From Candidatus Rhabdochlamydia sp. (lineage in GTDB: Bacteria; Chlamydiota; Chlamydiia; Chlamydiales; Rhabdochlamydiaceae): a DNA stretch of 64,000 nucleotides. A model generated the notes under the pieces. The model was not told where the DNA came from, ran no database searches, and saw only the letters and a list, made by a program, of their open reading frames with translations. Positions 31,399-38,271 of this stretch are shown here, one piece after another. The translations under genes were made by a program, and so were the position numbers. Every line of letters begins with the position of its first letter. The first letter of the stretch is position 1. The stretch is from the NCBI GenBank assembly GCA_051648645.1, contig JBOFFP010000003.1, forward strand, positions 160,001 through 224,000, in the 5' to 3' direction.

Positions 31399-32631
31399 AT
31401 GCATTTTTTACCCAGACACTTAACTGCTCGGATTCAATCTGCAGCTAAATATTTTAAAGTTATTCTTCTTTTGGGAGCACGTCAAACAGGAAAAAGCACT
31501 CTTTTGCGCCATCTTTTACCAAAATCAAAAATGATTGTTTTTGATCCTATCCAAGATTTATACGAAGCTCGAACCGATCCTGATCGCTTTTTAGATTTAT
31601 TTCCCGCTCCCTTAGTTCTAGATGAGGTTCAATTTGCACCTGAATTACTTGCAGCTCTAAAGAGAAGAGTTGATCAAAGTGAGCAAATGGGTCAATATTA
31701 TTTAACTGGTTCTCAAAATTTTAGTGCTCTTAAATCAGTATCAGAAAGTATGGCAGGAAGAGTAGCTATTTTCCACCTAAATCCTTTTACTCCTTTAGAA
31801 ATAGCAGGAATGGGCGAACGTAAAGGATGGTTAGATGAATACTTATTAAACCCAGATTCCTTCATACAATCTCCTCACGAAGTTATTCCCCATCTTCCTC
31901 CTTTAAATGAATTTCTTTTTAGAGGGACTTATCCTAGAGCAACAGTGTTACCCATATCGGAATTAGAGTCTTTTTTTCTCTCTTATATTCAAACTTATGT
32001 CGAACGTGATGTACGTTTAATTGAAAACATTGAAAACTTAACCTTGTTTGGTGATTTTTTAAGACTTTCTGCCGTTTTAACAGCGCAAGAAATCAATGCA
32101 TCTCATCTAGGAAGAGAACTTGGCCTCTCCTCTCAAACAGCACGTAAGTGGCTTAACTTGCTTATGTATACTTATCAATGGATTGAAATAGCTCCCTTTC
32201 ATAATAATGCCACTAAAAGATTGAGCGATAAACGTAAAGGCTATTTTAAGGATACTGGCCTTGCTTGTCATTTAATGCGCATCCATTCCCCAGATGCAGT
32301 TGTAACAAGCATGAAACTGGGTGCTCTTTTTGAAACTTGGGTAGTCAACTATATTCAACAGCAATTTGCATCTACCGCAGCAACTAATTGTTATCATTGG
32401 CGATCTCACTCAGGGGCTAAAGTAGATCTAATTTTAGAAAGAGATGGAGCACTTTTTCCGATTGAAATTAAATGTAAATCTAAACCGAACAGAGCAGATG
32501 CTTCCTCCATACGCAAATTTTGCCAAACTTATCCTAATATGAAAATTATGCCAGGTCTTGTGATCCACGCAGGCCATGAAACCTACCTAATAGATCAAAA
32601 AACATTAGCTCTTTCTTGGAAAGCGCTTTAA
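31399..32631 (+). CDS. AAA_14-family ATPase with C-terminal DUF4143 (PD-(D/E)xK-like) domain
   Basis: GARQTGKST, LDEVQ, LTGSQ, YVERDV, YFKDTGL, GALFETWV, VDLILE…PIEIK. Confidence 0.88.
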   Translation: MHFLPRHLTARIQSAAKYFKVILLLGARQTGKSTLLRHLLPKSKMIVFDPIQDLYEARTDPDRFLDLFPAPLVLDEVQFAPELLAALKRRVDQSEQMGQYYLTGSQNFSALKSVSESMAGRVAIFHLNPFTPLEIAGMGERKGWLDEYLLNPDSFIQSPHEVIPHLPPLNEFLFRGTYPRATVLPISELESFFLSYIQTYVERDVRLIENIENLTLFGDFLRLSAVLTAQEINASHLGRELGLSSQTARKWLNLLMYTYQWIEIAPFHNNATKRLSDKRKGYFKDTGLACHLMRIHSPDAVVTSMKLGALFETWVVNYIQQQFASTAATNCYHWRSHSGAKVDLILERDGALFPIEIKCKSKPNRADASSIRKFCQTYPNMKIMPGLVIHAGHETYLIDQKTLALSWKAL

Positions 32632-32664
32632 CTGTTCAAAAAAATCCGTGTTTTTAGATTTAAT

Positions 32665-32743
32665 TTGCGTATAAAATATTTTAAAACCAATAATTGCCAG
32701 AACAACCAAAAAGCTACAAGAGCTTTCTTGTAATCATTTTTGG
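32665..32743 (+). promoter_or_regulatory. Putative promoter (TTGCGT…AATAAT) and 5'-leader hairpin, repeated before every gene A
   Basis: CCAAAAA-G(A/C)TACAAGA-GCTT-TCTTGTAATC-(A/G)-TTTTTGG at 32706-32743, 34314-34351, 35090-35127 and 36704-36741. Confidence 0.55.
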
Positions 32744-32790
32744 CAAACTCCAAAGATTTTGATCTACCTTTTTATACAGGAGAATACAGC

Positions 32791-33207
32791 ATGAAAAATT
32801 CATTAAAATTATTCAGTCTAAGTATTGTTTTATCTATGGCTAGCATAAGCGGTTTTGCGAGTAACCCTGAAAAAAATTACATTGATTCGGAAAACATTGT
32901 CTTTAATGAAGAAAAAATCTATCTGCGCTCAGAAGAGGGTCATTTAGAGCCATTAACTGCTGTCTATTCAGATGAAAAAGGTTTATATATTTTAACTCAG
33001 GATGAATCTGAAAGTACGGAACCCCCTTTATATACGCTGGATTCACAAGATCAGCTAGTTCAATTTATAGACCAAGAACCTTTGTGTACAGAAGATGCCT
33101 ACCGTGAACTTACAACTGCCTGGGAATGTTCTAAGTGCGCCACTATTAACGCATCCTCCAGAAAAAAATGCAGAAGATGTAACAAACAAAAAGACCCTAG
33201 TCAGTAA
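32791..33207 (+). CDS. Array gene A1: signal-peptide protein with C-terminal RanBP2-type zinc finger
   Basis: AGGAGA RBS then ATG 32791; MKNSLKLFSLSIVLSMASISGFA signal peptide; WECSKCATINASSRKKCRRC. Confidence 0.85.
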   Translation: MKNSLKLFSLSIVLSMASISGFASNPEKNYIDSENIVFNEEKIYLRSEEGHLEPLTAVYSDEKGLYILTQDESESTEPPLYTLDSQDQLVQFIDQEPLCTEDAYRELTTAWECSKCATINASSRKKCRRCNKQKDPSQ

Positions 33208-33216
33208 AACCCAACC

Positions 33217-36551: not shown

Positions 36552-36788
36552 CACTTGTATTTCTTCATTTAGCAAAAGGGATTTTATCCTAGCTATAAAA
36601 AACATTAGCTTTTCCTTGGAAGAGCTTTAACTGTTCAAAAAATCAGTATTTTTAGATTTGATTTGCGTATAAAATATTTTAAAAACAATAATTGCCAAGG
36701 CAACCAAAAAGATACAAGAGCTTTCTTGTAATCATTTTTGGCAACCTCCAAAGATTTTGATCCATCTTTTTATACAGGAGAATATAGC

Positions 36789-37208
36789 ATGAAAAATTTA
36801 TTAAAATTATTCAGTCTAAGTATTGTTTTATCTATTGCTAGCATAAGCGGTTTTGCTAATAACCCTGAAAAAAATTATATTGATTCGGAAAACATTATCT
36901 TTACTGAAGAAAAAATCTATCTGCTCTCAGAAGAGGATCCTTTAGAGCCATTAACTGCTATCTATTCAGATGAAAAAGGTTTATACATTTTAACTCAGGA
37001 TGAATCTGAAAGTACAGAACAAGTCCCTTTATATACGCTGGATGCACAAGATCGGTTAGTTCAATTGATAAATCAAGAACCTTTGTGTGTAGAAGATGCC
37101 TATCGTGAACTTACAGCTGCCTGGGAATGTGTTTACTGCAAAGAGATTAACCCAGGCTATAGGACAATATGTATATACTGTGATAAAGAAAGAATCATTT
37201 TTCAGTAA
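36789..37208 (+). CDS. Array gene A4: signal-peptide protein with RanBP2-type zinc finger
   Basis: Paralog of A1; finger WECVYCKEINPGYRTICIYC. Confidence 0.85.
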   Translation: MKNLLKLFSLSIVLSIASISGFANNPEKNYIDSENIIFTEEKIYLLSEEDPLEPLTAIYSDEKGLYILTQDESESTEQVPLYTLDAQDRLVQLINQEPLCVEDAYRELTAAWECVYCKEINPGYRTICIYCDKERIIFQ

Positions 37209-37261
37209 AATCCAAATGCCTCAGCTTTTTTAAATACTGGGGTAACTTAATAAGAAAAATT

Positions 37262-38179
37262 ATGAAAAAATTCTTTTGCTCATTACAACTAAAAACCTTG
37301 TTGCTTTGGCTTTTTCTAGCTGGGTTAGCTTTTTATTTTTCTCCAAAAAAATCCTCTCTTTCTGAAAAAGAAAATATCCTTATGGAAGCTTTGTTGCAAA
37401 ACATGATATTTGAGGACGATTTTGGCTATACTTTATTCGGAAACAAGCCTGTATCTCTAACAGCATATCCTCTTAATTCTTTCTTTGATTCCATCGATTT
37501 CTTTGATTCCAATGTTTTAAAAAAAAGTCCTATTTTTCCTATTGTTGAAGCTTGGTCGATATTGAAAAAAAACGTTCTTTGTCATCTTAAAGGAAACTAT
37601 GTGATCCTTAAGCAAATAGATAACCCAATAAGTCAGCATGTTCTTTGGATCATTATGATCAATAAGTCTCGTTTTTTAGAAACAGTCTCTGAGCATCTGG
37701 ATCTATTCTGTGAACTGCTTGGGAAAAAAATCACTCCAAAAGAACTACTAAACGAAGTTACTCTTAATCAAAGAAGTTTATGGAACATCCTCAACAATGA
37801 GGCTCTCTATGGAATTCTTTTAGGATATGGCAAAGAAAACTCTCTGGCTTTTAAAAGAAGATTGGATCTAGGGCAAGTCTTCAACTCTGCTTTCCGAAAA
37901 CCACACCCTTCCCCTCCTCCTTTTTGCCCAAAACCTTCCAAAGGGTTTCAATCAGCAGAAGAAGAGTTCCTTTACCTTGAAAAGCAATGCTGTTCTTTTG
38001 ATATACAGCAAAGTCCTCTGTCTCCTCTTATGCCTCCTACTTTTATGACTATGAAAAATGATGAAAAAACAAAAGAACTTACCAAGGAATACAAAGAAAC
38101 CTTTAAACAAATTATTGCTATTTATGCTAAAGGAGATTTCTTATCGATTACATTAGATCGTTTAAATGCGGAAAAATAA
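37262..38179 (+). CDS. Array gene B4: membrane-anchored hypothetical protein
   Basis: Paralog of B1 and B3. Confidence 0.85.
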   Translation: MKKFFCSLQLKTLLLWLFLAGLAFYFSPKKSSLSEKENILMEALLQNMIFEDDFGYTLFGNKPVSLTAYPLNSFFDSIDFFDSNVLKKSPIFPIVEAWSILKKNVLCHLKGNYVILKQIDNPISQHVLWIIMINKSRFLETVSEHLDLFCELLGKKITPKELLNEVTLNQRSLWNILNNEALYGILLGYGKENSLAFKRRLDLGQVFNSAFRKPHPSPPPFCPKPSKGFQSAEEEFLYLEKQCCSFDIQQSPLSPLMPPTFMTMKNDEKTKELTKEYKETFKQIIAIYAKGDFLSITLDRLNAEK

Positions 38180-38271
38180 CACTTGTAATTCTCTGTAAGC
38201 AATAAGGATTTTATACAACAGATTGGCTTGCATATTGAACAAAACCCTCAGTAGCTGCATACTTACCCATT

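What the first reader, a model, noticed from the sequence alone, without database searches (positions are those of the whole stretch)
32590..38215. Tandemly amplified two-gene module: secreted protein with a hypervariable zinc finger plus a co-varying membrane partner
Seen in sequence: four tandem units, each with a conserved leader, gene A (~140 aa), a hairpin and gene B (~300 aa). The A proteins are highly similar over the signal peptide and ~95-aa body up to EDAYRELT, then diverge abruptly in the last 25-30 aa while keeping the Cys/Trp/Asn scaffold. The B proteins have near-invariant blocks (FGYTLFGNKPVS, GILLGYGKENSLAF, C-terminus) separated by four divergent patches: after KPVSL, after QID, around the Pro-rich loop and after EKQ. 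Inference: this is the pattern of a diversifying cognate pair such as toxin/immunity, ligand/receptor or precursor peptide/processing enzyme, acting in the periplasm or at the host interface. I recognise no named system with this architecture.
Basis: partly seen in the sequence, partly recalled or inferred. Interest (0 to 1): 0.9.

Follow-up and report, generated by a model that had tools for sequence, protein, structure and literature searches.

The report
Exported zinc-finger protein and partner array
A chlamydia-like bacterium carries a tandem array of a two-gene unit, a small exported protein ending in a eukaryote-type zinc finger plus a membrane-tethered partner, and this uncharacterised pair recurs across environmental chlamydiae.

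Summary
The repeat is real but is three intact units plus one decayed one. Unit 2 has stops in the A finger, and B is reduced to a 44-nt remnant.

- **A:** Sec signal peptide, a small beta domain, a disordered acidic linker and a C-terminal zinc finger. The finger fits the RanBP2/NZF pattern and predicted fold.
- **B:** an N-terminal anchor or signal plus a ~270-aa domain with no Pfam family and no clear solved-structure match.
- **Not a local oddity:**
  - B matches in 134 of 300 phylum genomes.
  - An A-like gene next to B in 25 of 30 B-seeded loci.
  - 26 of 30 A matches beside a B in five genomes.
- **B is tied to Mip/FkpA-type FKBP isomerases:** fused in 6 of 7 long forms tested, and encoded next door in six loci.
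- **Selection:**
  - The window's finger paralogues diverged fast (dN/dS 1.2-2.1).
  - Single-copy orthologues conserve the finger (0.10-0.45).
  - B's variable patches are loops with ratios below 1.

Best reading: a co-inherited exported pair. B would be a periplasmic folding or anchoring platform and A's finger the ligand-binding end. Toxin/immunity has no support. Binding itself could not be tested.

The parts
31399..32631 (+). Flanking DUF4143/AAA_14 ATPase gene. Its last ~20-40 nt are repeated at each unit boundary (32612-32643, 34221-34252, 36611-36642).
   Evidence: Pfam. PADLOC PDC-S01, E 4e-102. Repeat family D10. Absent from the syntenic locus L002.
32651..32790 (+). Leader of unit 1, a conserved non-coding 5' region. 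Copies lie at 34259, 35035 and 36649.
   Evidence: Repeat family D1: 4 copies, 93-97% identical.
32791..33207 (+). A1: signal peptide, beta domain, linker and RanBP2-type finger (…WECSKCATINASSRKKCRRC…).
   Evidence: Pfam PF00641, E 0.0013, 18.4 bits, below the cut-off of 27.
33217..33242 (+). Intercistronic hairpin of unit 1. Copies lie at 34823-34848, 35610-35635 and 37218-37243.
   Evidence: (D9), 61 and 88: 8 predicted pairs, conserved in 9 sequences. Not listed among the terminator-like sites.
33246..34160 (+). B1: N-terminal hydrophobic anchor plus a ~270-aa domain of a Chlamydiota-wide family.
34399..34731 (+). A2, truncated. It ends after …YRELTVY. The finger region 34732-34812 is broken by stops.
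   Evidence: One search shows 2 TAA inside the match. An intact A2-type gene with its own finger exists in a relative (L051).
34891..34993 (+). Remnant of B2: 44 nt of internal B sequence joined directly to the shared sequence downstream of B.
   Evidence: Repeat families D8, D11 and D12. Contigs of runs X1-X3 span 34576-35064.
35175..35600 (+). A3 (finger …YWECFHCSEINGRLRTYCKNC…).
   Evidence: Model m6d3c6ad2af87. Fold matches to RanBP2/NZF fingers.
35652..36551 (+). B3.
   Evidence: Model m9fe49ff969e7, pLDDT 85.4, pTM 0.80.
36789..37208 (+). A4 (finger …AWECVYCKEINPGYRTICIYC…).
37262..38179 (+). B4.

Best explanation
**What it is.** A co-transcribed, co-inherited pair of exported proteins, locally amplified by tandem duplication.

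**Protein A**
- A is made with a cleavable Sec signal peptide.
- The mature protein has three parts:
  - a conserved ~45-aa beta domain;
  - a flexible acidic linker;
  - a C-terminal zinc finger of the RanBP2/NZF type.

**Protein B**
- B is held at the membrane by an N-terminal hydrophobic helix. In some relatives this is a cleavable signal or a lipobox instead.
- B exposes a ~270-aa domain on the periplasmic side.

**Inferred mechanism**
- B is a private folding, holding or anchoring platform for A.
- B works with Mip/FkpA-type FKBP prolyl isomerases. Other paralogues are fused to them or encoded beside them.
- This is analogous to a secreted enzyme and its membrane-anchored foldase in one operon.
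- A's conserved beta domain is the likely docking part.
- The tethered finger is the ligand-binding end. Its surface diverged after duplication in this lineage, so the three intact copies probably recognise different ligands, possibly host factors.

**Shown:**
- the anatomy and the export signals;
- the finger type, by pattern and predicted fold;
- A-B linkage across the phylum;
- the link between B and FKBP isomerases;
- the rate pattern.

**Inferred:**
- physical A-B binding;
- the chaperone or anchor role of B;
- what the finger binds.
For: **Anatomy**
- ORFs and alignments.
- The A model has a signal helix, a beta domain at residues 28-68 with pLDDT above 90, a disordered stretch at about 70-110, and a finger at 112-135 with pLDDT about 90.
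- The B model has a helix at 7-25 followed by an alpha/beta domain.
- 153 of 178 full-length B-family proteins have a hydrophobic N-terminal segment.

**Finger type**
- Most of the best Foldseek rows are solved RanBP2-type or NZF fingers: ZRANB2, Nup153, RanBP2, TRABID, HOIP, MDM2. Probabilities are 0.93-0.99 and, for the fingers other than MDM2, rmsd is 0.3-1.5 A over 24-28 residues.
- PF00641 is the commonest Pfam hit together with a generic zinc ribbon: 9 of 38 A members each.
- One A-family member reaches the Pfam cut-off, 27.5 against 27 bits.

**Linkage**
- The same-genus locus has a single A-B pair between dapB and kdsA.
- An A-like ORF lies beside B in 25 of 30 B-seeded loci.
- 26 of 30 A matches in five genomes lie within 500 bp of a B match.
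- 49 of 58 held pairs have A upstream of B on the same strand, most of them 60 nt or less apart or overlapping. This set is biased.
- A and B distance matrices correlate: r 0.77 with 0 of 2000 permutations as high. Within one genome, r 0.67 with 8 of 5000.
- Contigs from an RNA library bridge A1 to B1 and A3 to B3. This is a weak hint only.

**FKBP link**
- 6 of 7 long B forms carry FKBP_C above the Pfam cut-off.
- Five neighbouring genes are FKBP_N plus FKBP_C.
- The window genome's own fourth B paralogue overlaps an FKBP gene by 4 nt.

**Rates**

| Region | dN/dS | dS |
|---|---|---|
| Window fingers | 1.2-2.1 | 0.30-0.41 |
| A signal peptide plus body (to RELT) | 0.33-0.54 | 0.12-0.14 |
| B, whole gene | 0.25-0.33 | 0.32-0.44 |
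| Fingers of single-copy orthologues | 0.10-0.45 | 0.28-1.31 |
Against: - No direct test of A-B binding was possible. The complex predictor was unavailable.
- The window's three B genes carry no FKBP domain, and no FKBP gene lies in the array.
- About 15 of about 41 B genes in five genomes have no A beside them, and 4 of 30 A matches have no B. The pairing is therefore not obligatory.
- A four-cysteine zinc site in an exported protein is unusual. The cysteines could form disulfides instead.
- dN/dS above 1 rests on about 16 synonymous sites per pair and is not significant on its own.
- The low dS of the A body suggests gene conversion, which complicates the rate comparison.
Confidence: 0.42

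Rival explanations
1. Both proteins are host-directed effectors. A and B leave the bacterium by Sec followed by type II secretion or vesicles, and act in the inclusion or host cytosol. There the eukaryote-type finger binds ubiquitin chains, Ran or RNA, and B acts as a co-effector rather than as a helper of A.
For: - The finger is of a type otherwise typical of eukaryotic proteins.
- The family is multi-copy: up to 13 A and about 18 B genes in one genome.
- Paralogues diverge after duplication.
- Expansions of eukaryote-like domain families are known in Chlamydiae (PMC4209131, passages read).
- A GspD secretin gene lies 2.4 kb upstream in the window.
Against: - The ubiquitin-contacting T-F dipeptide of NZF fingers (recalled) is replaced by A-T, S-E or K-E in the window copies.
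- B's link to periplasmic Mip/FkpA-type isomerases points to the envelope.
- The secretin neighbourhood is not conserved. The pair sits in different contexts in other genomes.
- No secretion evidence of any kind was obtained.
Confidence: 0.2
2. The pair belongs to the cell envelope. A is a small cysteine-rich periplasmic or outer-membrane-associated protein whose cysteines take part in redox-dependent disulfide cross-linking. B, together with Mip-type isomerases, is an assembly factor. No host ligand is involved.
For: - Both proteins carry export signals.
- Several A relatives have extra cysteines outside the finger.
- B is fused to or beside Mip/FkpA-type isomerases.
- Some B relatives have a lipobox. 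14 of 178 have a lipobox-like motif.
- From general knowledge (recalled): chlamydial envelopes are rich in disulfide-linked cysteine-rich proteins.
Against: - Retention of W and N besides the four cysteines argues for the folded zinc-finger scaffold, not merely for cysteines.
- A structural role does not explain accelerated non-synonymous change confined to the finger surface.
Confidence: 0.18
3. B is an enzyme that modifies A's finger, and A is its substrate, decoy or precursor. An example would be a very distant analogue of the NleE cysteine methyltransferase, which methylates a zinc-binding cysteine of NZF fingers.
For: - NleE (4r29) fills ranks 1, 2, 4 and 10 of the Foldseek list for the B model.
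- NleE's known substrates are NZF fingers (PMC4239114, abstract and passages read). This coincides with the finger type of B's neighbour.
Against: - The scores are in the range the tool calls common for unrelated folds: Foldseek E 0.18, TM 0.23/0.32.
- Profile comparison of the B alignment with NleE gives probability 0.2%.
- The Pfam NleE model PF20798 hit none of the 129 B proteins scanned.
- By linear offset only, with no residue-level superposition, NleE's SAM-binding Arg107 would fall in B's variable, low-confidence loop.
- None of the residues invariant in the 50-sequence B alignment is Arg, Glu, Asp, His or Cys.
Confidence: 0.06
4. One reading: a diversifying toxin/immunity or ligand/receptor cognate pair, in which the finger docks on B's variable patches.
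For: - Tight linkage and co-inheritance of A and B.
- The finger diverges fast in this array.
Against: - No toxin, nuclease, pore or immunity domain in Pfam, NCBIfam or PADLOC.
- Both partners are exported, unlike a cytoplasmic immunity protein.
- B's patches have pN/pS of at most 0.94 and lie largely in low-confidence loops.
- Single-copy orthologues conserve the finger.
- Congruent A and B trees follow from duplication of whole units.
Confidence: 0.05

Closest known systems
RanBP2-type / NZF zinc fingers (Pfam PF00641 Zn_ribbon_RanBP)
   Same: - The pattern W-x-C-x2-C-x3-N-x6-C-x2-C holds in A1, A3 and A4 (the pattern itself is recalled).
- Relatives also show the x4 spacing.
- The predicted fold superposes on solved fingers of ZRANB2, Nup153, RanBP2, TRABID, TAB2 and Npl4.
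   Different: - Window copies score 18.4 and 14.4 bits, or nothing, against a cut-off of 27.
- The finger sits at the end of a Sec-exported bacterial protein.
- The T-F ubiquitin-contact dipeptide (recalled) is absent.
- Some relatives replace a cysteine by histidine.
Secreted lipase and its membrane-anchored lipase-specific foldase (Lif) encoded in one operon (recalled, not tested here)
   Same: - Gene order: an exported protein first, then a ~300-aa partner with an N-terminal membrane anchor and a periplasmic domain.
- The pair is inherited together.
   Different: - No sequence or fold similarity of B to a Lif foldase was found in any search.
- A is a 12-kDa finger protein, not an enzyme.
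- This is a functional analogy only.
Mip / FkpA-type periplasmic FKBP prolyl isomerases (Pfam FKBP_N + FKBP_C)
   Same: B-family domains are fused N-terminally to a Mip-like module, or are encoded next to FKBP_N+FKBP_C genes, in several families of the phylum.
   Different: - The three B genes of the window have no FKBP domain.
- The genome's three FKBP genes lie elsewhere.
NleE cysteine methyltransferase effector acting on NZF fingers (PF20798; PMC4239114)
   Same: - It is the best-ranked named protein in two fold searches with the B model.
- Its substrate is the finger type carried by B's neighbour.
   Different: - No profile similarity: hhalign probability 0.2%.
- No sign of conserved SAM-binding residues.
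Lineage-specific expansions of eukaryote-like domain families in Chlamydiae (F-box, BTB and similar; PMC4209131, passages read)
   Same: A multi-copy family with birth-and-death dynamics, carrying a domain typical of eukaryotes, in environmental chlamydiae.
   Different: - Those families are large cytoplasmic-type proteins proposed as type III substrates.
- Here the proteins are small, carry Sec signals and come with a fixed partner gene.
- 'Zinc', 'RanBP' and 'FKBP' occur nowhere in that paper's text.

Membership tests
RanBP2-type zinc finger (PF00641) | Sequence pattern W-x-C-x(2,4)-C-x3-N-x6-C-x2-C (pattern recalled from PROSITE) | tested here: met
   A1, A3 and A4 fit exactly. A2 has lost it. 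Relatives fit with x2 or x4 spacing and x5-6 before the third cysteine.
RanBP2-type zinc finger (PF00641) | Score at or above Pfam's gathering cut-off (27 bits) | tested here: inconclusive
   - Window copies score 18.4 bits and 14.4 bits, and A4 has no hit.
- 9 of 38 family members hit at E<=0.1, best 7.4e-5.
- One A-family member (L072) scores 27.5 bits.
- 11 of 61 genomes match at E<=0.01, 1 over the cut-off. 2 of 14 control genomes give weak hits.
RanBP2-type zinc finger (PF00641) | Fold: two zinc knuckles, superposable on solved fingers | tested here: met
   On a predicted model only:
- Foldseek probability 0.93-0.99; rmsd 0.3-1.5 A for all named fingers but MDM2.
RanBP2-type zinc finger (PF00641) | Binds one zinc ion through the four cysteines | not testable with these tools
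   Needs metal analysis of the purified protein.
NZF subclass (ubiquitin-binding) | T-F dipeptide after the second cysteine (recalled) | tested here: not met
   The window copies have A-T, S-E and K-E at these positions.
NleE cysteine methyltransferase (PF20798) | Sequence or profile similarity to the family | tested here: not met
   - No PF20798 hit in 6 + 50 + 73 B proteins.
- hhalign of the B alignment against NleE gives probability 0.2%.
- The model does recognise NleE itself at E 1e-124.
NleE cysteine methyltransferase (PF20798) | Shared fold | tested here: inconclusive
   - Foldseek E 0.18, TM 0.23/0.32.
NleE cysteine methyltransferase (PF20798) | SAM-binding residues (Arg107, Glu191, Tyr212 of NleE; PMC4239114) | not tested
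   - No residue-level superposition could be obtained.
- None of the residues invariant in the B alignment is Arg, Glu, Asp, His or Cys.
Toxin/immunity or anti-phage defence pair | A recognisable toxin or immunity domain, or a match to a defence-system model | tested here: not met
   - Pfam and NCBIfam gave no family for B, and only zinc ribbons for A.
- PADLOC gave 0 families for A1, A3, B1 and B3.
Mip/FkpA-type FKBP isomerase | FKBP_C domain in the window's B proteins | tested here: not met
   - None in B1, B3 or B4.
- Present in 6 of 7 long B paralogues of other genomes.
- Present in neighbouring genes.

The most novel reading that the evidence does not exclude
Environmental chlamydiae export eukaryote-type RanBP2/NZF zinc fingers through the Sec pathway, using a dedicated and previously undescribed partner family that is wired to Mip-type isomerases. 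The partner either presents the finger at the host interface to intercept ubiquitin-, Ran- or RNA-dependent host processes, or chemically modifies the finger's zinc-binding cysteines as a distant structural analogue of NleE. In the second case the pair would be the first bacterial enzyme-plus-own-NZF-substrate module.
Probability: 0.1. Interest if true: 0.9.

Novelty: new variant of a known kind. Interest (0 to 1): 0.62.

Why it matters
- **Size of the gap.** The B family is large and has no annotation.
  - It has 2166 cluster representatives at E<=0.001.
  - It matches in 134 of 300 phylum genomes.
  - It has no Pfam family and no clear structural relative.
- **A handle on function.** Three clues are new:
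  - B is nearly always paired with a small exported RanBP2-type finger protein.
  - B is repeatedly fused to Mip-type isomerases.
  - Mip proteins are, from general knowledge, classical infectivity factors of intracellular bacteria.
- **An unusual finger.** A Sec-exported zinc finger of a eukaryotic type is odd in itself. It raises the question of whether zinc fingers work at the chlamydial envelope or in the inclusion.
- **A natural experiment.** The window's array offers three diverged fingers on an almost identical body, plus one dead copy. This suits ligand-specificity studies.

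Tried and rejected
A-B binding is therefore untested.
  - The best match, 2guk, is a protein of unknown function.
  - A full-text search for '2GUK' found only an unrelated paper.
- **NleE lead:** profile comparison was negative.
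- **Atlas:**
  - For B, only unnamed or 'Lipoprotein family' Chlamydiota clusters, plus DUF4504 on 13% of one cluster.
  - For A, no usable hit.
- **Weak Pfam hints for B** were treated as chance:
  - TTL in 2 of 50 members.
  - DUF3793, DUF443 and Vac17, once each in 73.
- **Longer or fused forms of A:** none found among 8000 candidates. This is weak evidence.
- **Metagenome scan:** the alignment I gave included the leader's upstream reading frame, so the peptide patterns were drawn from it. It returned a single 1-kb locus.
- **Earlier findings:** none for this genome.
- **Literature:**
  - 'RanBP2-type zinc finger' + Chlamydiae, Rhabdochlamydia + 'zinc finger', and Chlamydiae + 'zf-RanBP' each gave 0 papers.
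  - Two genome papers contain no 'zinc', 'RanBP' or 'FKBP'.
  - Their supplements were not opened.
- **Sigma-70 promoter-like sites** are not enriched in the array: 18 against 20.5 expected.
- **Read depth and uncovered bins** in the RNA-library run say nothing about expression level.

Full report
**1. What is in the window**

Between dapB (30580-31329) and a KdsA-like gene (38272-39105) lie a DUF4143/AAA ATPase gene (31399-32631) and then a tandem array.

The leader plus the 5' part of gene A occurs four times at 93-97% identity. Start-to-start spacing is 1608, 776 and 1614 nt.

Three units are complete:
- A1/B1: 32791-33207 and 33246-34160.
- A3/B3: 35175-35600 and 35652-36551.
- A4/B4: 36789-37208 and 37262-38179.

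Unit 2 is decayed:
- A2 ends just after ...YRELT, and its finger region carries two TAA stops.
- Of B2 only 44 nt of internal sequence survive, joined to the shared downstream sequence (families D8, D11, D12).
- Contigs of three public runs cover this stretch at 34576-35064, so it is not an assembly error.
- A relative's 1-kb contig has an intact A2-type gene with a fourth, different finger, directly behind the same ATPase gene.

The genome is 1.67 Mb in 12 contigs. Its closest named protein relatives are from Candidatus Rhabdochlamydia.

**2. Protein A**

Gene callers start A at the ATG (MKNSLK...). The parts are:
- A typical signal peptide.
- A small beta domain (residues 28-68, pLDDT above 90).
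- A disordered acidic stretch.
- A confident C-terminal finger.

Evidence that the finger is of the RanBP2/NZF type:
- The three intact fingers fit W-x-C-x2-C-x3-N-x6-C-x2-C. I recall this as the RanBP2-type pattern.
- Most of the best Foldseek rows are solved RanBP2-type or NZF fingers, with probability 0.93-0.99. Apart from MDM2, rmsd is 0.3-1.5 A. E-values are near 1 because the domain is tiny.
- Pfam PF00641 scores the window copies below its cut-off.
- PF00641 hits 9 of 38 family members.
- One A-family member reaches the cut-off, 27.5 against 27 bits.

The T-F dipeptide that I recall as the ubiquitin contact of NZF fingers is not present.

**3. Protein B**

- B has an N-terminal hydrophobic helix and a ~270-aa alpha/beta domain. 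The model has pLDDT 85.4 and pTM 0.80.
- It has no family in Pfam, NCBIfam or PADLOC.
- The family is large: 2166 representatives at E<=0.001 in the 1.84-billion-protein library.
- 153 of 178 full-length members have a hydrophobic N-terminus. Only 14 have a lipobox-like motif.

**4. The pair is conserved far beyond this window**

- All seven other genomes of the genus that were searched have an A match, and each has a B match beside it.
  - The one locus read in full (L002) has a single A-B pair between dapB and kdsA, without the ATPase.
  - The array is therefore a lineage-specific amplification.
- The B profile matches in 134 of 300 genomes of the phylum, often several times per genome. One family of 29 sampled genomes has none.
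- Of the 30 best B loci, each with 1.5-kb flanks, 25 hold an A-like ORF. The other five are:
  - two with B at a contig edge;
  - one with a frameshifted A;
  - one with a finger-only remnant;
  - one with nothing.
- In five genomes, 26 of 30 A matches lie within 500 bp of a B match.
- About 26 of about 41 B genes have an A beside them. This comes from my merging of 50 match rows.
- In 49 of 58 held pairs A is upstream of B on the same strand, most of them 60 nt or less apart or overlapping. Nine are in other arrangements, seven of them on opposite strands (a biased set).
- A and B distances correlate: r 0.77, with 0 of 2000 permutations as high. Among ten paralogous pairs of one genome, r is 0.67 with 8 of 5000 as high.
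  - Units are therefore duplicated and kept as wholes.
  - This fits a fixed partnership but does not prove recognition.

**5. The clue to B's role**

- Nine of the ~41 B genes in five genomes lie in 600-700-aa reading frames.
- Six of seven such proteins tested carry an FKBP_C domain above Pfam's cut-off, C-terminal to the B domain.
- Separate FKBP_N+FKBP_C genes, the Mip/FkpA architecture, lie directly beside B in four other loci. One locus has two of them.
- The window genome's own fourth B paralogue, on another contig, overlaps an FKBP gene by 4 nt.
- Five of the seven long forms also have an A-like gene upstream.
- Fusion and neighbourhood therefore tie B to periplasmic prolyl isomerase-chaperones.

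**6. Evolutionary rates**

| Region | dN/dS | dN | dS |
|---|---|---|---|
| Window A signal peptide plus body (to RELT) | 0.33-0.54 | 0.044-0.067 | 0.12-0.14 |
| Window fingers | 1.2-2.1 | 0.50-0.62 | 0.30-0.41 |
| Window B, whole gene | 0.25-0.33 | 0.107-0.125 | 0.32-0.44 |
| Fingers of six single-copy genus orthologues | 0.10-0.45 (15 of 15 pairs) | 0.059-0.212 | 0.28-1.31 |

- B's four variable patches reach a pN/pS ratio of at most 0.94. They lie largely in low-confidence loops.
- The finger and B share the same synonymous depth.
- The A body and the 93-97% identical leader look homogenised, probably by gene conversion.
- So the finger is not hypervariable by nature. It diverged quickly after duplication in this lineage while keeping its scaffold.
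- With about 16 synonymous sites per comparison, a ratio above 1 is not significant alone.

**7. Transcription**

- A 7-8 bp hairpin sits between A's stop and B's start in all four units and in five orthologues. The loop length varies and there is little covariation.
- It is not among the terminator-like sites found.
- Contigs from one metatranscriptomic library bridge A1 to B1 (33002-33301) and A3 to B3 (35417-35668).
- This is only a weak hint of co-transcription, because DNA can be present in such libraries.

**8. Explanation and rivals**

I favour an exported pair in which B, working with Mip/FkpA-type isomerases, folds, holds or anchors A, and A's tethered finger is the diversifying ligand-binding end. 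The closest analogy I can recall is a secreted lipase with its membrane-anchored foldase in one operon. No homology to that system was found.

Rivals:
- **Both proteins are host-directed effectors.**
- **Envelope role.** The cysteines would serve disulfide chemistry.
- **B as an enzyme acting on the finger.**
  - This rests on a striking coincidence. NleE methylates NZF-finger cysteines (PMC4239114, passages read), and it is the best-ranked named protein for the B model in two searches.
  - The scores are in the noise range.
  - The profile comparison is negative.
  - The Pfam NleE model hit none of the B proteins scanned.
- **Toxin/immunity.** It has no domain support, and both partners are exported.

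**9. Novelty**

No description of this pair was found in four text searches or in the passages of two chlamydial genome papers. Supplements were not opened.

The finger type and the FKBP partners are known kinds. The following appear to be undescribed:
- the B family;
- A's beta domain;
- their fixed pairing;
- the Sec-exported setting of such a finger.

Noticed in passing
window 31399-32631: - The ATPase gene (DUF4143 + AAA_14) beside the array matches the PADLOC candidate defence model PDC-S01 at E 4e-102.
- It is absent from the syntenic locus of a same-genus genome (L002).
- Its last ~20-40 nt recur at each unit boundary (32612, 34221, 36611), so it was already there when the units were duplicated.
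   Followed up: partly
G000 contig C10:84921-86545 (locus L050 1419-3049, minus strand): - A fourth, distant B paralogue of the window's genome (323 aa, with a cleavable signal) overlaps a Mip-like FKBP gene by 4 nt.
- It has no A-like gene nearby.
- The genome has three FKBP genes in all.
   Followed up: yes
L002-L007 (same-genus orthologues of A): - The linker between the beta domain and the finger is made of acidic, Q/D/E-rich repeats (…QDNQDELDQPTEQE…).
- The repeat number varies, so the proteins range from 155 to 191 aa.
- The finger itself is conserved.
   Followed up: partly
L018 1110-2358 (genome G154): - Here A is frameshifted between the beta domain and the finger.
- The finger's frame runs on into B without a stop.
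- This could be a pseudogene, a sequencing error or a fused form.
   Followed up: no
L034 (genome G324) 82-3778: Five genes sit on one strand: B, A, B, then two FKBP_N+FKBP_C genes. The B proteins here have a lipobox-like N-terminus (…FFISC…).
   Followed up: partly
window 35578 and 35385: - Contigs of public runs differ from the window inside A3.
- One base is missing at 35578 in a DNA run and in the RNA-library run. This would shift the frame of the last few codons.
- Three bases are missing at 35385 in two DNA runs.
   Followed up: no
window 28796-30397 (minus strand): A GspD-type secretin gene (Secretin, GspD N0) lies 2.4 kb upstream of the array. The neighbourhood is not conserved where the pair occurs in other genomes.
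   Followed up: partly
L072 1150-1479 (genome G051): An A-family protein without any B within 1.5 kb. Its finger is the only one seen to reach Pfam's cut-off for PF00641 (27.5 bits).
   Followed up: partly
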